Source of the DNA: a virus
Taxonomy: Duplodnaviria; Heunggongvirae; Uroviricota; Caudoviricetes
Reading direction: 5' to 3' (one strand)
DNA: 8,369 bases
IMG/VR virus record: IMGVR_UViG_3300039329_000118
Shown here: piece after piece, positions 1,056-7,758 of the stretch
Numbering within the stretch: position 1 is the first letter of the stretch
Layout of the letters: each line of letters opens with the position of its first letter
Notes under the pieces: model-generated
What the model saw: the letters and a program-made list of their open reading frames with translations, nothing else
What the model was told of the DNA's origin: nothing
The model's database searches: none
Made by a program: the position numbers and the translations under genes

Positions 1056-1086
1056 NNNNNNNNNNNNNNNNNNNNNNNNNNNNNNN
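1056..1086. other. run of 31 N: assembly gap or masked bases
   Basis: Directly visible in the sequence. True length is unknown; it interrupts the region between the candidate OL/PL and the first leftward gene. Confidence 0.95.
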
Positions 1087-1247: not shown

Positions 1248-1667
1248 CTATGATGCGTTTTGTGCTTTCTTTTTACGGATTTCTTCGTAGATCATATTGT
1301 AATACTGTTTTTTCTCTTCAAGAGTTTTTAATAATTTATCCGCTTCACTTTCTGGCAGTTCGTCTAAGAGATCTAAAAAAATACGTTGTCGTGGCGTTAG
1401 AACCCTTGTTTCATAACTGGAGGCTGTGTTCGTTGATGATGAAACGATACCATCCATCCATCCCCGGGGTAACCCAAAGGACTCTTCGATAATCTCCACC
1501 ATATCATCAGCGATCCGTTTTTTTCCCTTTTTCCCCTCTGGGTACAACATTCTTGATACATAAGAAGGCTCGCGCCCGATCTTTCTGGCCACGTTAACCG
1601 CTTTACCATCGCATTTCTCATCACGAATTTTGATGAGTTGCTGTCGTCTAAATTCATATTTGTCCAT
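1248..1667 (-). CDS. prophage repressor, CI-like HTH protein without a recognisable S24 autoprotease domain
   Basis: 139-aa ORF divergent from a cro-like gene. N-terminal HTH-like segment (KAVNVARKIGREPSYVSRML). Too short for a LexA-like Ser/Lys peptidase domain and no such motif seen. Flanked by palindromic operators. No SD before the ATG at 1667, so it may be translated from a leaderless or short-leader transcript, as lambda cI is from PRM. Confidence 0.7.
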   Translation of the reverse strand: MDKYEFRRQQLIKIRDEKCDGKAVNVARKIGREPSYVSRMLYPEGKKGKKRIADDMVEIIEESFGLPRGWMDGIVSSSTNTASSYETRVLTPRQRIFLDLLDELPESEADKLLKTLEEKKQYYNMIYEEIRKKKAQNAS

Positions 1668-2458: not shown

Positions 2459-2529
2459 CTGACAATAGCCATATCGAATCGCTTCCGGCAACTCGTGAGT
2501 AAAAAGATTCGGTATCAGAAGAGGTGAGT

Positions 2530-3600
2530 ATGGCTAACGCCTGGCTCAGATTATGGCATGACATGCCAAATGACCCTAAGTGGCGAACAATTGCCAGGGT
2601 GTCAGGGCAGCCAATTGCAACAGTGATGGCAGTGTATATCCACCTCCTGGTGAGTGCGTCACGAAATGTCACGCGAGGTCACATTGATGTCACGACAGAA
2701 GATTTGGCAAGTGCGCTCGACGTGACAGAAGAGGTAATTGATTCAATTTTGCAGACGATGCAGGGGCGGGTACTTGATGGTGATTTAATCACTGGATGGG
2801 AAAAACGCCAGGTGCTTAAAGAGGACAACGGCAATATTTCGCAAACCGCAAAATCTCCTGCAGAGCGCAAGAGGGCGCAGCGAGAGAGGGAAAGAAAGCG
2901 GGAACAAAATGGCGATTGTCACGGCGCGTCACGAAATGTCACGCACATGTCACGACGAGTCACGACAGATAAAGATACAGATAAAGATACAGATCAAGAA
3001 GATCAAAACACTATGGTCCATGGCGTAAAAAACGCCACGAACCAGGCAGGGGATGTTCAGACCGTCAATCCTGGTCAGCCAGCAGGCACGACACCGGAAG
3101 CCGATTCAGCGTATGCGCTGAAAGCCGATTCGGGCGCTGTGCAGCAGGTGATGACCCCAAGGCCGGAGCAATCACACCAACTGCAGCAGCCTGAAGCCGA
3201 TTCCGCCATTCAGCGGAAAGCCGATCGGGTAGTCCCGGAAAACACCGGGCTGTCTGTGGGACGAGTGGATTATCCGGATGCGTTCGAACAGGTCTGGCGG
3301 GAGTACCCGTTGCGTGCCGGAGCAAACCCGAAGAAATCCGCTTTCAGTGCCTGGAAGGCCAGATTACGCGAGGGGGTGCCACCAGAGGCCATGCTGGATG
3401 GCGTGAGGCGTTACGCAAGATACTTGGCGGCTACCGGGAAAACGGGAACGGAATTTGTTCAGCGAGCGACGACGTTTTTTGGACCGGACCGGAATTTTGA
3501 GAACCCCTGGTTGCTCCCGGTAAGCGGCACGAACAACCAGCGTTGTGTGAATCATATTTCTGAACCGGATAACGAAATTCCGCCGGGCTTCAGGGGGTAA
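2530..3600 (+). CDS. phage replication initiation protein (O-like / replisome organiser) with internal origin repeats
   Basis: ORF-track 2524..3600 (GTG start). I prefer the ATG at 2530 with AGAGG 6 nt upstream. Sits in the replication-module position after cro/YdaT-like genes. Contains two iteron clusters and an AT-rich tandem repeat within the coding sequence, giving repeated peptide motifs (SRNVT...VTT twice, DKDTDKDTD). The C-terminal ~120 aa is a distinct region of unknown fold. Confidence 0.65.
   Translation: MANAWLRLWHDMPNDPKWRTIARVSGQPIATVMAVYIHLLVSASRNVTRGHIDVTTEDLASALDVTEEVIDSILQTMQGRVLDGDLITGWEKRQVLKEDNGNISQTAKSPAERKRAQRERERKREQNGDCHGASRNVTHMSRRVTTDKDTDKDTDQEDQNTMVHGVKNATNQAGDVQTVNPGQPAGTTPEADSAYALKADSGAVQQVMTPRPEQSHQLQQPEADSAIQRKADRVVPENTGLSVGRVDYPDAFEQVWREYPLRAGANPKKSAFSAWKARLREGVPPEAMLDGVRRYARYLAATGKTGTEFVQRATTFFGPDRNFENPWLLPVSGTNNQRCVNHISEPDNEIPPGFRG
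2656..2694. repeat. iteron cluster A: four GTCAC(G/A) repeats at 10-11 bp phasing
   Basis: GTCACG at 2658, 2668, 2689 and GTCACA at 2678 (start positions). The 19-mer GCGTCACGAAATGTCACGC (2656..2674) recurs exactly at 2926..2944. Confidence 0.55.
2918..3010. repeat. iteron cluster B (five GTCACG repeats) plus adjacent AT-rich tandem repeat: candidate origin of replication
   Basis: GTCACG starting at 2918, 2928, 2938, 2949, 2959 (10-11 bp phasing), followed by two perfect tandem copies of GATAAAGATACA (2968..2979, 2980..2991) and a degenerate third. This mirrors the iterons-plus-AT-rich layout of lambda ori inside gene O. Confidence 0.55.
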
Positions 3601-3640: not shown

Positions 3641-4063
3641 GTGGCAAAAGTTTTTACACAAGAAGAGCGGGAAAAAATTAAAGGACAGGTTGTTGAACTC
3701 GTACGCCAGAGTGGGCGTGAGACGTTACGGCAACTGGAAGTCAAGACAGGTGCGACAAGATATCTGATGAGCGTTCTCGCAAGAGAGCTGGTTGCCAGCG
3801 GCGATGTATACAACTCTGGTTACGGGTTATTCCCGTCTGAACAGGCGCGTAAGGACTGGCAAAATGCCCGTAAAAAGCTCTCAAGGGCAAAGCTGAAGAA
3901 ACCATCTGCGGTTGATCCGGACCTTATCTGGCCATTACCTGACGGAGAAATACGTCGCTACGACAGGCGTCAGAACATAATCTGTCGCGAGTGCCGGAAG
4001 AGTGAAGTTATGCAGCGCATATTGTCGTTTTATCAGGGTGATGTTCGGTATTTATTGAAGTGA
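3641..4063 (+). CDS. hypothetical protein downstream of the replication gene
   Basis: 140-aa ORF with GTG start and AGGAGG SD (3631..3636), 40 nt after the replication gene stop. Contains one CxxC (CRECRK) near the C-terminus. Far too small to be a DnaC/P-like helicase loader. Function unknown. Confidence 0.5.
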   Translation: MAKVFTQEEREKIKGQVVELVRQSGRETLRQLEVKTGATRYLMSVLARELVASGDVYNSGYGLFPSEQARKDWQNARKKLSRAKLKKPSAVDPDLIWPLPDGEIRRYDRRQNIICRECRKSEVMQRILSFYQGDVRYLLK

Positions 4064-4130
4064 CGAGATTAAAGTGCATTAGTTCAGATGCAAATTGACA
4101 TTTTGTGGCACAGGGTAGAGCTAGCGTGGT

Positions 4131-4156
4131 TGTCCGCTTTGTGCCAACAGCGGACA
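4131..4156. terminator. GC-rich hairpin between convergent genes (possible bidirectional terminator or insulator)
   Basis: Stem GTCCGCT (4132..4138) pairs with AGCGGAC (4149..4155) around a 10-nt loop. Lies between the stop of 3641..4063 (+) and the stop of 4210..5019 (-). No flanking T-run on either strand, so not a canonical intrinsic terminator. Confidence 0.3.
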
Positions 4157-4209
4157 TTATAGATGGTATATGTAGAAAGTGAACATGCGTAGATTGTATG
4201 ATTTAGCCG

Positions 4210-5019
4210 TCACTTAATTATTGGATAACTCACACAAGTATGACCGTTGCTTATCGCATACATTTGGTTTCCCTTAAGATTTACAAATGGAAATGTCGTA
4301 TACTCATAATTTATAGAGGTCATATTAAATGTAAGGAATTTATCCTCAAGTTCTAATTTTGTAGAGTGGGCAGGGTATGTTCCTTCATTTTTCATTGTGA
4401 TAATAAAACCGATAGGAAAAAAATGTAAAGCACAAATAAATGCCACATGTCCTTCGTTCATAAATGCTACACTTTGAGCGGATATGTGCATTCTGTGTGG
4501 GTAAAACCAGTAGTAAATATCATGAGTTTCCTCAAAACTTGAATTTTTACCCAAAACATAATCCTTTAAAGGTGTATAGAAGGGGCTATCTACGGGTTCT
4601 TTTTTACAATCTTCAACTGAAGTTGCTGATAGCACGTGCCCAATCATAGCCTTAGTGAAAGATATGCTATCAAAAGGTATTCTAATGAATGGATATACAT
4701 TCATACCATTCATATATCGACTTAACTGTTCTTTAAAGGACTTTGTTACATTTTCAATTGCAACATCGAGCCCACCTAATACCTTATTGTTACAGTGGCT
4801 GCAAATGGTTCTGAAATAAGAGCCATTTTTAGCATTTAATGGTTTAACTGGTTCCTGAATACCAAAAAATTCGCTAACTGTTTTCTGCAAAACAGGGCCT
4901 AAGGTTATGGCGCACTTTGGAGGAACATGATCTTTTGTGAGCAAGCCATATTTCCCACAAATATTGCAATAACCTTCAGTAATGCCATTGTGCTTCCATC
5001 GTTCACTAATTTTCGTCAT
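4210..5019 (-). CDS. HNH (His-Me finger) nuclease-motif protein with an uncharacterised C-terminal domain
   Basis: 269-aa ORF in markedly AT-rich DNA, opposite in orientation to the flanking phage genes. N-terminal motif C-N-I-C-G-(x7)-D-H-V-P-P-K ... N ... C-S-H-C-N-N-K fits the HNH pattern (CxxC, [D/E]H, N, CxxC). SD-like GAGGGA about 6 nt upstream of the ATG on the minus strand. About 180 C-terminal residues unrecognised. Confidence 0.75.
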   Translation of the reverse strand: MTKISERWKHNGITEGYCNICGKYGLLTKDHVPPKCAITLGPVLQKTVSEFFGIQEPVKPLNAKNGSYFRTICSHCNNKVLGGLDVAIENVTKSFKEQLSRYMNGMNVYPFIRIPFDSISFTKAMIGHVLSATSVEDCKKEPVDSPFYTPLKDYVLGKNSSFEETHDIYYWFYPHRMHISAQSVAFMNEGHVAFICALHFFPIGFIITMKNEGTYPAHSTKLELEDKFLTFNMTSINYEYTTFPFVNLKGNQMYAISNGHTCVSYPIIK

Positions 5020-5139
5020 TTTTATTCCCTCAGTAGCATAAGCTATCTATACGTTTTTTAATCCTATCAAAGATACAACTTAACGTCAGGAAAATGATAG
5101 TGTTTATCTAAGTAATACAATTAACTTCAACGCGTGACA

Positions 5140-5163
5140 GTCTGCTTTTCGCTCAAAGCGGAC
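5140..5163. other. GC-rich hairpin upstream of the HNH gene, related to the hairpin at 4132..4155
   Basis: GTCTGCTTTTCGCTCAAAGCGGAC; its reverse complement matches 4132..4155 at 20 of 24 positions, and 18 of 24 in direct orientation because both are near-palindromic. Together they bracket the HNH gene. Confidence 0.35.
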
Positions 5164-5643
5164 TAGAAGGTTAGCTTGCGTCGGACTTGGCGTATTTAAA
5201 GAAGTGCTGGTGGTGACTGGTTGTTGTGTTCCATTTCTACAGAACAAAATCACAGAAACTATACCCAATAGTTGTATCTCATCAATGATGAGACAGCCTC
5301 ATATTTATCAGAACTGGTGTACGTCCAATACAGGAGGTTGTCGTGCTGGTTCTCAAATGTGCGCTGGCTATTGCTGCTGTAATGGCAATTTATTGCCTTG
5401 CTGTTGTTCTTATGGATCGCCTTTCTGATTGATTTTATATTGGCGAGGTGACGTGAGTTAAGTAGAATTGCTGCGGGTGCTTGAGGCTATCTGTCTCAGG
5501 CATGAACACCAAAGGCAGATAGAGAAAAGCCCCAGTTAACATTACGCGTCCTGCAAGACGCTTAACATTAATCTGAGGCTCAATCTATGAACGGCAAATC
5601 TAGGTTAGCCTCTTACGTGCCGAAAGGCAAGGAGAAGCAGGCT

Positions 5644-5799
5644 ATGAAGCAGCAAAAGGCGATGTTAATCGCCCTGATCGTCATCTGTTTAACCGTCATT
5701 GTGACGGCACTGGTAACGAGGAAAGACCTCTGCGAGGTACGAATCCGAACCGGCCAGACGGAGGTCGCTGTCTTCACAGCTTACGAACCTGAGGAGTAA
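5644..5799 (+). CDS. hokD: Hok/Gef family type I toxin (HokD/RelF-like small membrane peptide)
   Basis: Translation MKQQKAMLIALIVICLTVIVTALVTRKDLCEVRIRTGQTEVAVFTAYEPEE (51 aa) has the Hok/Gef layout: hydrophobic transmembrane segment then conserved C-terminal tail. It matches my recollection of E. coli HokD/RelF closely; the symbol is from memory. SD AAGGAG at 5629..5634. The ORF track's 70-aa frame (from ATG 5587) is an in-frame upstream extension. Confidence 0.85.
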   Translation: MKQQKAMLIALIVICLTVIVTALVTRKDLCEVRIRTGQTEVAVFTAYEPEE

Positions 5800-5868: not shown

Positions 5869-5888
5869 ACCCGCTTCGGCGGGTTTTT
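5869..5888 (+). terminator. rho-independent terminator of the hok transcript
   Basis: Stem ACCCGC (5869..5874), UUCG tetraloop (5875..5878), stem GCGGGT (5879..5884), followed by T-run to 5888. About 70 nt after the hok stop. Confidence 0.75.
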
Positions 5889-5903
5889 CTAGCATCTATC
5901 TGG

Positions 5904-5963
5904 TTGACAAAGTCTATGTTAAATGGAAATATGGTTGACACCAAAACAACAAGGATATTACGG
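5904..5963 (+). promoter_or_regulatory. candidate promoter region for the two-gene operon
   Basis: Two TTGACA hexamers (5904..5909 and 5935..5940) in the 77-bp gap between the hok terminator and the ATG at 5966. Possible -10 elements are AAATAT (5927..5932) for the first, or TATTAC (5956..5961) for the second, which would give a near-leaderless mRNA. Weak; start site not resolvable by eye. Confidence 0.3.
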
Positions 5964-5965
5964 TC

Positions 5966-6580
5966 ATGCAGAATTTATCTCAACAGTTGTTAGAAGCATA
6001 TGACAAGGAGTGCCGCAAAGAGCTTTCGATCGCGTTAGCACAGGCTTATCTTCATTCGCATATGAAGGCAAAAGAGTTTGGTTCTTTTTGGGCTCAAGCA
6101 CAGTCATATTTGCGCTGGTTTTATGCCGATGCATTGCTTGAGAATGCGGCTAAGCGTGTGGGGCTGGATTTTGAAGTCGGTAGCAATGCTGCTAAAAATT
6201 GTAAACACATTGCGATTCACTCGAACAACTGGAAAATGACGGCACATCATTTATCGGGTAATGCGCCACTTCCTAAGCAGGCATTGTATAGAGCTGTTTA
6301 CGCTAATCAAAATTATGAATTGAATTTTGGGGATGAAAATGCCGACTCCCTGGATGGGAGAGCGTCTGGTGGACATGTTTATATGTTACATGATGGCAGT
6401 AATCAGCACTTGTCCAAACTGAATTTAACTGTTCCTTCTTCGGATAATTACGGGATTCTTTATACTGAGTCTTTACCAATTATGACGATGGTAGAAGTTG
6501 AAGCAGAAAATGTGGATTCTGAGATTGAAGATAAAATCAAGATTCTTACCGAACAAATAATTAAATCACAGCAATCATGA
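5966..6580 (+). CDS. hypothetical protein, first gene of the two-gene operon (candidate effector/toxin partner of the HTH-peptidase)
   Basis: 204-aa ORF, AT-rich. Stop overlaps the next gene's start (ATGA at 6577..6580), implying translational coupling. No motif I can recognise; acidic C-terminal tail. Confidence 0.7.
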   Translation: MQNLSQQLLEAYDKECRKELSIALAQAYLHSHMKAKEFGSFWAQAQSYLRWFYADALLENAAKRVGLDFEVGSNAAKNCKHIAIHSNNWKMTAHHLSGNAPLPKQALYRAVYANQNYELNFGDENADSLDGRASGGHVYMLHDGSNQHLSKLNLTVPSSDNYGILYTESLPIMTMVEVEAENVDSEIEDKIKILTEQIIKSQQS

Positions 6581-7722
6581 GCATGAATATCGCACAAACA
6601 CCATTTACTGATAAATCGTTTAATCCTCGTCGCCTTGAGGAGGCAAGAGAGGCAAAAGGGTTGACGATGGCTGAACTTGCCAGAGTGCTCAATATTTCAA
6701 GACAAGCTATTTCGTCATTTGAGAAGGGGTTGAAGTCTCCCTCTGCTGATACACTTTCTGCAATAGCCAAGGTGTTAGGATTTCCAGAACGATTTTTCTT
6801 AGCCTCCAGTGCTTCTCCATCTCTGGAGGGGGCGATTCATTTTAGAAGTCGTTCAACTGCGACCAAAAAGGCTCGAGTTACAGGGAAAACACGTGGGCGT
6901 TGGGCGGCATTAATATTGGATGAATGTCTAAAATATGCTCAATTACCAGATGTGGTTCTGCCTGAATTCGATATTATTGATTTTGAGGTTCTGTCTCTAT
7001 CTGATATTGAGGATATGTCCACCCAATTAAGGCGTTTTTGGGGGTTAGGTGATGGTCCAATACTCAATTTAACTAGACTTGTTGAAAATAAAGGAATCGT
7101 GGTTTCTCATTTACCTTCTGGTGAGAAAGTTGATGCCTTTTCGTTCTGGCATAATGGGCGGCCTTTAATTATGTTAGATAGCTCGAAGACGGCTGTTCGC
7201 ATGCGATTTAGTCTTGCTCATGAACTTGGCCATTTAATTATGCATAGGGCAGTGGAGGATGACTACCTGAATGATAAAGAATTATTCGACCTAGTGGAGT
7301 TGCAGGCCGATTATTTTGCCTCCAGCTTTTTAATGCCAGCCACGACTTTCGGGCGTGAATTTTATAGTCCAAATTTATCAGCGTTAGAACGATTAAAACT
7401 ACGTTGGATTACATCTATCGGTAGTATTGCCATGAGGAGTCATAGCCTTAAGTTAATTAGCGATAATCAGAAAAGCTATATATTTAAGCAATTAGCGCCA
7501 TTCCATCGTAGGGAGCCGTTAGATGATGCAATCCCAAAAGAAGAGCCTGAGTTACTTAATAAGTTACTTTTACTTCTTGATAAGCATTCAATCATAAAGG
7601 TAACTGAGTTAACTGATATCTTTGCTCTTCCTTTAAATGAGTTATCTGCAATTACACGATTTAAAGAATCAGATATGATTCATTCTGACAATGTTATTTC
7701 ATTTACCATAAAACAAAAATAA
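6577..7722 (+). CDS. XRE-family HTH fused to an ImmA/IrrE-type (COG2856 / M78-like) zinc metallopeptidase domain
   Basis: 381-aa ORF. N-terminal Cro/C1-type HTH (LTMAELARVLNISRQAISSFEKG). Central HEXXH zinc-binding motif (SLAHELGHLIMH) with the downstream acidic/aromatic segment (ELQADYFASSFLMP) typical of ImmA/IrrE peptidases. Coupled to the upstream gene and followed by a terminator. Confidence 0.85.
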   Translation: MSMNIAQTPFTDKSFNPRRLEEAREAKGLTMAELARVLNISRQAISSFEKGLKSPSADTLSAIAKVLGFPERFFLASSASPSLEGAIHFRSRSTATKKARVTGKTRGRWAALILDECLKYAQLPDVVLPEFDIIDFEVLSLSDIEDMSTQLRRFWGLGDGPILNLTRLVENKGIVVSHLPSGEKVDAFSFWHNGRPLIMLDSSKTAVRMRFSLAHELGHLIMHRAVEDDYLNDKELFDLVELQADYFASSFLMPATTFGREFYSPNLSALERLKLRWITSIGSIAMRSHSLKLISDNQKSYIFKQLAPFHRREPLDDAIPKEEPELLNKLLLLLDKHSIIKVTELTDIFALPLNELSAITRFKESDMIHSDNVISFTIKQK

Positions 7723-7733
7723 TTCTCATTCAT

Positions 7734-7758
7734 ACCCGCCTCGGCGGGTTTTTGTTTT
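7734..7758 (+). terminator. rho-independent terminator of the two-gene operon
   Basis: Stem ACCCGC (7734..7739), loop CUCG (7740..7743), stem GCGGGT (7744..7749), then TTTTTGTTTT. Twelve nt after the stop at 7722. Nearly identical in sequence to the hok terminator. Confidence 0.7.

What the first reader, a model, noticed from the sequence alone, without database searches (positions are those of the whole stretch)
4131..5163. AT-rich cassette with a single HNH-motif gene, opposite in orientation and bracketed by related hairpins
Seen in sequence: the 269-aa minus-strand ORF carries a clear N-terminal HNH pattern (CNICG...DHVPPK...N...CSHCNNK) with about 180 unrecognised C-terminal residues. 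The DNA is much more AT-rich than the flanking replication genes. Two GC-rich near-palindromic hairpins (4132..4155 and 5140..5163) match each other at 20 of 24 positions in inverted orientation and sit just outside both ends of the gene. Inference: a horizontally acquired moron. It could be a free-standing homing endonuclease (common for phage HNH genes, with the hairpins marking insertion boundaries or acting as insulators), or a single-gene nuclease-based anti-phage or abortive-infection protein. The N-terminal HNH placement differs from what I recall of e14 McrA (C-terminal HNH), so it is probably not McrA.
Basis: partly seen in the sequence, partly recalled or inferred. Interest (0 to 1): 0.7.

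Follow-up and report, generated by a model that had tools for sequence, protein, structure and literature searches.

The report
Swappable prophage cassette encoding uncharacterised HNH nuclease
A 1-kb, AT-rich, hairpin-bounded gene cassette sits in a variable slot of an E. coli Qin-type prophage that holds known anti-phage genes in related prophages, and it encodes an uncharacterised nuclease-like protein that is most likely a new single-gene phage-defence factor, though this is untested.

Summary
ORF 4210-5019 (-) encodes 269 aa. The cargo between the hairpins is 34.5% GC, against 49-54% in the replication genes. The hairpins at 4132-4155 and 5140-5163 match at 20/24 in inverted orientation.

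The window is a Qin/Rac-type lambdoid prophage of E. coli. The DUF977-to-hokD interval is a cargo hotspot. At least 12 different cargos, including PD-T7-1 and AbiH, lie between the same two hairpins. No empty slot was found in 5,426 genomes.

The same hairpin-to-hairpin unit recurs at 99.6% or higher in the P2-like 'Z/fun' moron slot and beside a 200-aa tyrosine recombinase on chromosomes and IS26 plasmids. GenBank records of the P2 Z-region already annotate these boundary inverted repeats.

Best reading: a moron encoding a new HNH-based defence nuclease. A homing endonuclease is unlikely, and it is not McrA. Function is untested.

The parts
4119..4155 (.). Left arm of the slot's inverted repeat. 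It contains the L-type boundary hairpin 4132-4155 (GTCCGCTTTGTGCCAACAGCGGAC). The 5' arm plus TGTGCCA belong to the prophage backbone. The 3' arm ACAGCGGAC travels with the cargo.
4156..5139 (.). Variable cargo segment (984 bp, 34.5% GC). It is replaced by other genes in related Qin-type prophages.
4210..5019 (-). ORF269 (WP_000161640.1). It has an N-terminal HNH/EndoVII-like Zn-ribbon nuclease core and a C-terminal domain of about 160 aa with no known relative.
4789..4968 (-). Coding region for residues 18-77. It holds CxxC (C18, C21), D30-H31-V-P-P, G66 and CxxC-N (C73, C76, N77), the conserved putative catalytic and zinc site.
5020..5105 (-). Upstream region with the ribosome-binding site. 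It travels with the gene into P2-like phage pro147 (94% nt identity) and presumably holds the gene's own promoter. No clear sigma-70 match was found.
5140..5176 (.). Right arm of the slot's inverted repeat. It contains the R-type boundary hairpin 5140-5163 (GTCTGCTTTTCGCTCAAAGCGGAC). The 5' arm GTCYGCNNN varies with the cargo. TCGCTCAAAGCGGAC plus the flank belong to the backbone.
3641..4063 (+). DUF977 gene, the conserved left anchor of the hotspot and the last gene of the replication module.
5475..5799 (+). sok RNA (5475-5649) and hokD toxin gene (5587-5799), the conserved right anchor of the hotspot.

Best explanation
Segment 4132-5163 is one interchangeable cargo cassette (a moron). It occupies a variable slot between the replication module (DUF977) and sok/hokD of a Qin/Rac-type lambdoid prophage of E. 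coli. The two hairpins are conserved boundary repeats of that slot, and cargos are swapped at them. Homologous repeats bound the known 'Z/fun' moron position of P2-like phages, and cassettes move between the two phage types.

The cargo gene encodes a stand-alone 269-aa protein. Its N-terminal part is a zinc-stabilised HNH/endonuclease-VII-type (beta-beta-alpha-metal) nuclease core. In it, D30-H31 would act as general base and metal ligand, N77 as metal ligand, and C18/C21/C73/C76 as the zinc site. The remaining 160 or so residues form a conserved domain of unknown fold.

Inferred mechanism: the protein is expressed from the prophage and acts as a single-protein anti-phage nuclease. The C-terminal domain would recognise an infection cue or a foreign DNA feature, and would either release or target the HNH site to cut DNA.

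Shown here: the cassette nature, the boundaries, the mobility, the conservation of the motif, and the hotspot's defence content. Inferred only: nuclease activity, defence function and the sensor role. The confidence of 0.55 is for the whole statement including the defence function; the cassette and boundary part alone I would put at about 0.9.
For: Prophage identity: YdaS/YdaT, replisome organizer, DUF977, Hok_Gef and sok.

Variable slot: flank homology in other prophages stops at 4155-4167 and resumes at 5140-5149. At least 12 cargos of 1.0-5.9 kb lie between the same L and R hairpins. These cargos include PD-T7-1 (E 7e-157) and AbiH. RosmerTA sits directly downstream of hokD.

Prevalence: the gene is in 141 of 5,426 E. 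coli genomes.

Mobility: window 4132-5164 is 99.6% identical in a P2-like contig between G and FI. Window 4140-5163 is 99.7% identical beside a 200-aa integrase, including on IS26 plasmids. The pro147 copy is 94% identical. G-FI is a published P2 moron position (PMC3573123). GenBank AJ512682 and AJ512685 annotate the flanking inverted repeats, whose inner ends carry the same core motifs.

Context of homologues: always solitary, and in mobile-element cargo positions. These include an inovirus end, P4-like satellite cargo beside ParE/RelB, a prophage next to terminase, a serine-recombinase island, and an array with AbiU2 and Shedu.
Against: No experimental data exist. The protein matches no PADLOC defence model and no paper mentions it.

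The last metal ligand is Asn rather than His, so activity is assumed by analogy.

Cargo at the same P2 position can have non-defence roles, for example the neaT acyltransferase. One distant homologue lies co-oriented inside a Mu-like head module. No clear promoter was found.
Confidence: 0.55

Rival explanations
1. ORF269 is a Type IV-like, modification-dependent restriction nuclease. It would constitutively cut DNA carrying a foreign base modification, with the C-terminal domain acting as the modification reader. It would not be an infection-triggered or abortive-infection nuclease.
Confidence: 0.15
2. ORF269 is a moron with a non-defence role. Candidates are lysogenic conversion or host fitness, a nuclease serving the phage itself (host DNA degradation, recombination or junction resolution like endonuclease VII), or an anti-plasmid factor.
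For: The same P2 G-FI position carries neaT, a virulence-associated acyltransferase. GenBank labels Z-region ORFs 'putative lysogenic conversion protein'. The motif CxxC..DH..CxxCN resembles the junction-resolving T4 endoVII (the residue roles are from memory). One homologue lies next to terminase and one inside a Mu-like head module.
Against: It occurs in very different elements (lambdoid, P2-like, inovirus, P4-like satellite, plasmids), usually anti-sense to the phage operons. This argues against a role in any one phage's life cycle. Its slot neighbours are defence genes.
Confidence: 0.2
3. ORF269 is a free-standing HNH homing endonuclease that spreads by cutting cassette-free alleles. The hairpins would be its insertion scars.
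For: HNH genes are common homing endonucleases in phages (established knowledge). The cassette is nearly identical (99.6% or more) in unrelated backbones.
Against: Cargos with no nuclease (PD-T7-1, DUF5677, AbiH and small ORFs) use exactly the same boundaries. No empty allele exists in 5,426 genomes; the only near-empty slot is an internally deleted remnant of another cargo. No NUMOD, IENR or AP2-type DNA-binding modules are found. The family is mostly chromosomal or temperate-element cargo, and only 3 of 50,697 phage records hold it.
Confidence: 0.05
4. The HNH-like module is catalytically dead and serves as a zinc-finger DNA- or protein-binding domain, making ORF269 a regulator or exclusion protein.
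For: The final His of HNH is Asn. NCBI's label is 'metal-binding protein'.
Confidence: 0.08
5. This rival concerns the hairpins only. They would be hybrid att-type sites of a dedicated site-specific cassette-exchange system, not passive conserved boundary repeats used by short-homology (RecET/Red-type) recombination.
For: For 4 cargos present in both Qin-type and P2-type slots, backbone-specific position 8 stays with the backbone. The cargo-specific 3' arm moves with the cargo, which confines the crossover to T-GTGCCA. The core TGTGCCA..GCGGA also directly follows a 200-aa tyrosine recombinase gene. The title of the P2 Z-region paper invokes site-specific recombination (Nilsson 2004; not readable here).
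Against: No recombinase is consistently linked: Int200 lies within 3 kb of none of the 120 viral loci. No empty site exists. In pro147 the right junction lies elsewhere, at a CTATCA microhomology. Stem covariation is weak. With only 15 nt of shared homology, the crossover window proves little.
Confidence: 0.25

Closest known systems
Morons at the P2-like 'Z/fun' position (between tail genes G and FI), flanked by annotated left and right inverted repeats (GenBank AJ512682, AJ512685; Nilsson et al. 2004; PMC3573123)
   Same: The cassette type and the boundary core motifs are the same: GTCCGCTYTGTGCCA...GCGGAC and GTCTG.TTTTCGCTCAAAGC. The ORF269 cassette itself sits there in pro147 and L127. The cargo is AT-rich, often anti-sense to the tail genes, and varies between phages.
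   Different: Here the slot lies in the early/replication region of a lambdoid (Qin/Rac-type) prophage, between DUF977 and hokD. The outer flanks are unrelated to P2. I found no description of cassette sharing between the two slots.
HNH / endonuclease VII (His-Me finger) nucleases with a Cys4 zinc site: Pfam HNH_5 PF14279, Endonuclease_7 PF02945; structures 6ghc McrA, 5h0o GVE2 HNH, 3fc3 Hpy99I, 4h9d Gme HNH, 1e7d T4 endoVII
   Different: About 40 residues are inserted between the DH strand and the second strand. The window protein is below Pfam thresholds. The core is fused to a conserved domain of about 160 aa with no solved relative.
Single-gene or compact prophage-encoded defence systems in hotspots (P2 old/tin and fun; the P2/P4 hotspots of Rousset et al. 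2022, PMC9122126; PD-T7-1 of Vassallo et al. 2022)
   Same: Genomic logic: one small operon, variable occupancy of a fixed slot, carriage on temperate phages and satellites, and a nuclease effector domain.
   Different: ORF269 matches none of the 5,027 PADLOC models, and no phenotype is known.
EcoKMcrA (e14 prophage Type IV restriction enzyme)
   Different: In McrA the HNH domain is C-terminal and follows a 5mC-reader domain. Here it is N-terminal. There is no sequence match.
Integron gene cassettes (attC hairpins)
   Same: Promoter-poor single-gene units bounded by imperfect palindromes. Part of each boundary site travels with the cargo.
   Different: There is no IntI-type integrase, no attI, and no attC architecture or length. 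The slots hold one cargo unit, not arrays. No free or empty forms were seen.

Membership tests
HNH / His-Me finger nuclease superfamily | Catalytic His at the end of the first beta strand, usually preceded by Asp or Asn | tested here: met
   H31 is invariant and D30 is at least 90% conserved in 114 diverse homologues. The model places them at the end of strand 24-31.
HNH / His-Me finger nuclease superfamily | Metal-ligand Asn or His at the start of the alpha helix | tested here: met
   N77 is invariant, directly follows C73-x-x-C76, and lies at the start of helix 74-103.
HNH / His-Me finger nuclease superfamily | Beta-beta-alpha-metal fold confirmed by structure comparison | tested here: inconclusive
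Pfam HNH_5 (PF14279) / Endonuclease_7 (PF02945) | Score above the curated gathering threshold | tested here: not met
   The window protein scores 11.6 bits against 27.5. Relatives give consistent sub-threshold hits: 92 of 114 hit HNH_5 (best 1.9e-6) and 21 of 114 hit Endonuclease_7.
HNH / His-Me finger nuclease superfamily | Metal-dependent nuclease activity | not testable with these tools
   Needs biochemistry.
Free-standing HNH homing endonuclease | An endonuclease-free allele with an intact target site exists in related genomes | tested here: not met
   The slot is always filled by some cargo. There is no empty site in 5,426 genomes.
Free-standing HNH homing endonuclease | Mobility depends on the endonuclease gene | tested here: not met
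   Nuclease-free cargos share the same boundaries and also occur in both phage backbones.
McrA-type Type IV restriction enzymes | N-terminal modified-cytosine reader plus C-terminal HNH | tested here: not met
   The HNH domain is N-terminal. There is no sequence hit to any PDB chain. The C-terminal domain has no fold match.
Known anti-phage defence families (PADLOC-DB 2.0) | Match to a family model | tested here: not met
   0 families at E<=0.01.
Phage moron / hotspot cargo | Variable occupancy of one fixed position among otherwise collinear related phages | tested here: met
Phage moron / hotspot cargo | Base composition deviating from the backbone | tested here: met
   34.5% GC against 49-54%.
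Phage moron / hotspot cargo | Own promoter and terminator | tested here: inconclusive
   86 bp of upstream sequence travels with the gene. No consensus promoter was found, and the hairpins carry no T-run terminator tail.
Integron cassette | IntI integrase, attI and attC sites | tested here: not met
   The only recombinase seen nearby is a 200-aa Phage_integrase protein in one context. The boundary sites are 24-nt hairpins.

The most novel reading that the evidence does not exclude
The two hairpins are attL/attR-like hybrid sites of an undescribed cassette-exchange system. It would shuttle defence genes precisely between fixed slots of unrelated temperate phages (the P2-like tail region, the Qin-type early region and other lambdoid positions) and a recombinase-linked island or plasmid module. 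In this reading ORF269 is a new single-protein immune nuclease whose C-terminal domain is a new sensor fold.
Probability: 0.15. Interest if true: 0.8.

Novelty: new variant of a known kind. Interest (0 to 1): 0.55.

Why it matters
If ORF269 protects against phages, it adds a compact (269 aa) single-protein nuclease system with a new regulatory or sensor fold to the defence catalogue. It would also mark the DUF977-hokD interval of the very common Qin/Rac-type prophages as a defence hotspot that can be mined, since most of its 12 or more cargos are uncharacterised.

The same short boundary hairpins delimit cargo in both lambdoid and P2-like phages, and identical cassettes occur in both. This offers a concrete, testable handle on how morons move between unrelated phages.

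Tried and rejected
Searches of ORF269 that found nothing:
- Pfam, NCBIfam and PADLOC gave no hit above threshold, and PDB-sequence searches (single sequence and 88-sequence profile) gave no hit at all.
- PHROGs returned only an unknown-function family, phrog_21495.
- The afdb50 library was unavailable.
This is uninformative because the template was a single sequence.

Literature:
- Searches for WP_000161640, A0A0L7ACS6, DUF977 plus defence, and the DefensePredictor supplements all found nothing.
- Nilsson et al. 2004 is not held.

Hairpins:
- Intrinsic terminators: rejected, because there is no T-run.
- A known RNA family: rejected. Only sok matched, in a gathering-threshold scan of the whole window.
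- An RNA structure kept by covariation: only weak support (C-G 20, T-A 13, T.G 10, C.A 11).

Empty-site search with a chimeric flank query: one hit, which turned out to be an internally deleted remnant of another cargo.

The 'chaperonin' product name has no support in any search.

Full report
**1. The observation**

The window is a Qin/Rac-type lambdoid prophage of E. coli. Its genes, in order:
- repressor, 1248-1667 (-)
- YdaS-like cro, 1768-2049
- YdaT-like gene, 2033-2458
- replisome organizer, 2524-3600
- DUF977, 3641-4063
- the ORF in question, 4210-5019 (-)
- sok and hokD, 5475-5799
- an RmrT/RmrA (RosmerTA) pair, 5966-7722

- The ORF encodes 269 aa with CNICG / DHVPPK / CSHCNNK.
- The cargo is 34.5% GC, against 48.7% for DUF977 and 53.9% for the replisome organizer.
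- The two 24-nt hairpins at 4132-4155 and 5140-5163 match at 20/24 in inverted orientation.
- The inverted repeat extends to 37 nt, 4119-4155 / 5140-5176.
- The stem motif occurs nowhere else in the window, against 0.03 expected. That pattern was chosen after seeing the data.
- The hairpins are not canonical terminators, because they lack a T-run, and their folding energy alone is unremarkable.

**2. The segment is a replaceable cargo cassette, and the hairpins are its boundaries**

About 4,000 complete E. coli genomes carry the DUF977 flank, but only 62-79 carry this cargo in this slot. The gene is present in 141 of 5,426 genomes in all, with 29 of the places on plasmids.

In prophages without the cargo, left-flank homology stops at window 4155-4167 and right-flank homology resumes at 5140-5149. 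Other genes fill the interval:
- a HEPN_RES_NTD1-like plus GNAT-like pair (L001)
- a split AbiH with two unknown genes (L004)
- PD-T7-1 with a 314-aa unknown and a 200-aa tyrosine recombinase (L005)
- a DUF5677 protein (L006)
- two small ORFs (L007)

Across E. coli and IMG/VR loci I counted at least 12 different cargos of 1.0-5.9 kb. Each lies between GTCCGCTTTGTGCCA-NNN-GCGGAC and GTCYGC-NNN-TCGCTCAAAGCGGAC. The ORF269 unit is the smallest, at 1,032 bp.

No empty slot exists in 5,426 genomes. The single near-empty case (L142) is an internally deleted remnant of the L004 cargo.

**3. The same unit sits in unrelated backbones**

- P2-like contig L127: window 4132-5164, hairpin to hairpin, is 99.6% identical. 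It lies between tail-fibre assembly gene G and sheath gene FI.
- P2-like phage pro147 (NC_028896): carries a 94% identical copy (window 4132-5105) at the same place.
- Beside a 200-aa Phage_integrase-family gene: window 4140-5163 is 99.7% identical, both on a chromosome (L002) and in a 'DUF2254 / 476-aa / integrase / ORF269' module next to IS26 on plasmids.

The G-FI interval is the known second moron position of P2-like phages (PMC3573123; PMC9122126). GenBank entries for the 'proviral Z-region' of P2-EC53 and P2-EC67 annotate left and right inverted repeats around the cargo. The inner ends of those repeats read ...AATCTGACAGTCCGCTCTGTGCCA... and ...GTCTGTTTTTCGCTCAAAGCTAACTGTCAGATT... These are the same core motifs as the two hairpins in the window. 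The hairpins are therefore a boundary element already recorded for P2. Here they appear in a lambdoid early region.

**4. How general the boundary element is**

Of 89 distinct contexts, 64 also have the 3' arm.
- About 34 loci are the Qin-type slot and about 28 are the P2 slot.
- Others lie in lambdoid late-regulatory regions (an R-type hairpin, about 20 nt, then an L-type hairpin), after umuDC-like genes, or near relB/hokD.

Four cargo types, ORF269 among them, occur in both the Qin-type and the P2-type slots.
- In all four, hairpin position 8 (T in Qin, C in P2) stays with the backbone.
- The cargo-specific 3' arm (ACAGCGGAC, AGAGCAGAC, AAAGCAGAC, TTACCGGAC) moves with the cargo.
- That pattern resembles hybrid att sites.

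Four points argue against a dedicated site-specific system.
- No recombinase is consistently linked.
- No empty site exists.
- The pro147 right junction lies elsewhere, at a CTATCA microhomology.
- Stem covariation is weak.

I favour conserved boundary repeats used for short-homology replacement; these prophages encode RecE-type exonucleases. I keep site-specific exchange as a live rival at about 0.25.

**5. The protein**

No curated family, PDB sequence or PADLOC model matches above threshold. PHROGs knows it only as phrog_21495, function unknown.

It belongs to a family of proteins of about 270 aa. There are 93 clusters in the word-indexed search and 634 representatives at E<=1e-3 in the exhaustive search. 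Named members are mostly Gammaproteobacteria, labelled 'chaperonin' or 'metal-binding protein' without basis.

Conservation across 114 members, down to 22% identity:
- invariant: H31, P34, C73, C76, N77, P202
- at least 90% conserved: G16, C18, C21, L27, D30, P33, G66, L81, G82, D85, G127, H128, W171, P244

Individually, 92 of the 114 members give weak HNH_5 hits (best E 1.9e-6), 21 give Endonuclease_7 hits (best 6.5e-4) and 21 give HNH hits.

AlphaFold2 gives a confident single-unit model (pLDDT 92.9, pTM 0.92). In it, D30-H31 ends a beta strand and C73..C76-N77 opens a 30-residue helix.

Fold searches:

I conclude that the N-terminus is a divergent, zinc-stabilised HNH/EndoVII-type module with an insert of about 40 residues. 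Residues 105-269 or so form a conserved domain of unknown fold. Assigning D30/H31/N77 roles by analogy with T4 endoVII D40/H41/N62 rests on my memory of that enzyme. The one hhalign test against a remembered sequence was uninformative.

**6. Context of homologues**

The gene is always solitary, with no conserved partner and no methyltransferase. It sits in cargo positions of mobile elements:
- the end of a Vibrio inovirus prophage, next to a DUF2726 gene (L009)
- P4-like satellite cargo next to ParE/RelB modules (L014)
- an Enterobacter prophage, anti-sense beside terminase (L015)
- a serine-recombinase island in Pseudomonas (L013)
- a small-gene array with AbiU2, a PLD-like gene and a Shedu SduA_C gene in Plesiomonas (L011)
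- an island with a KptA/HTH pair (L008)
- a Mu-like head module (L140)

**7. Mechanism and rivals**

Most likely (about 0.55), ORF269 is a prophage-expressed, single-protein anti-phage nuclease whose C-terminal domain senses or targets and whose HNH site cuts DNA.

The Type IV-like variant (about 0.15) differs only in the trigger. Nothing supports it beyond the lone-gene logic and the McrA-like HNH core.

A non-defence moron, or a nuclease serving the phage, remains possible (about 0.2). neaT at the P2 slot is a precedent.

The homing-endonuclease reading is disfavoured (about 0.05). Nuclease-free cargos use the same boundaries, there is no empty target allele, and typical DNA-binding modules are absent.

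A catalytically dead zinc finger is unlikely, given the invariant D-H...N.

**8. Novelty**

The kind of feature is well known: a hotspot moron carrying an HNH effector. The boundary repeats are already annotated for the P2 Z-region.

I found no prior record of three things:
- this protein family, with its fixed HNH plus unknown-domain architecture
- the DUF977-hokD interval as a hotspot containing defence genes
- identical cassettes with identical hairpin junctions in lambdoid and P2-like slots

No function has been tested, so interest is moderate.

Noticed in passing
window 5888-7733 (genes 5966-6580 and 6577-7722): A second cassette directly after hokD encodes an RmrT-like protein and RmrA (HTH plus M78 peptidase). 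This is the RosmerTA defence system (RmrA E 5.5e-102). It is absent from L001, L004, L006 and L016. It is bracketed by near-identical terminators, CCCGCTTCGGCGGGTTTTT at about 5869-5890 and CCCGCCTCGGCGGGTTTTT at about 7735-7756.
   Followed up: partly
L002 3372-3974, L003 2372-2974, L005 8053-8655, L143/L144 3302-3904: A 200-aa Phage_integrase-family gene (WP_001752951 / WP_023147793) is followed by the hairpin GGGCTGCAAYAGCAGCCC and then TGTGCCA..GCGGA, the same core as the 3' half of the window's left hairpin. On IS26 plasmids and one chromosome, ORF269 follows it directly. In L003 only 44 bp of the cassette end remain.
   Followed up: partly
L005 6386-7735; L004 6503-7412; L006 4995-6020; L001 3956-5935: The same DUF977-hokD slot holds PD-T7-1 (E 7e-157), a split AbiH, a DUF5677 protein, and a HEPN_RES_NTD1-like plus GNAT-like pair in other prophages. 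Most of the other cargos are uncharacterised.
   Followed up: partly
L023, L065, L126 (lambdoid late-regulatory region); L038, L047, L104 (after umuDC-like genes); L033, L040, L088 (relB/hokD region): The L-type hairpin GTCCGCTYTGTGCCA..GCGGA also occurs at other prophage positions. In several it lies about 20 nt after an R-type hairpin (..TTCGCTCGAAGCAGAC), like a junction between two slots.
   Followed up: partly
window 5475-5799: A complete sok antisense RNA (Rfam RF01794, 110 bits) overlaps the hokD (Hok/Gef) toxin gene.
   Followed up: yes
window 1056-1086: A run of 31 N in the window interrupts an ORF on the minus strand (1046-1201).
   Followed up: no
L140 7001-7756: The distant homologue P0088 (31% identity) lies co-oriented inside a Mu-like head-morphogenesis module, just upstream of the Mu-like protease gene. 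This context differs from the anti-sense moron positions seen elsewhere.
   Followed up: no
ORF269 family annotations: Public records name the family 'chaperonin' or 'metal-binding protein'. No search here supports 'chaperonin'.
   Followed up: yes
alignment A3: Five distant family members hit Pfam DUF7685 (best E 8.2e-5). I did not determine which region matches or what that family is.
   Followed up: no
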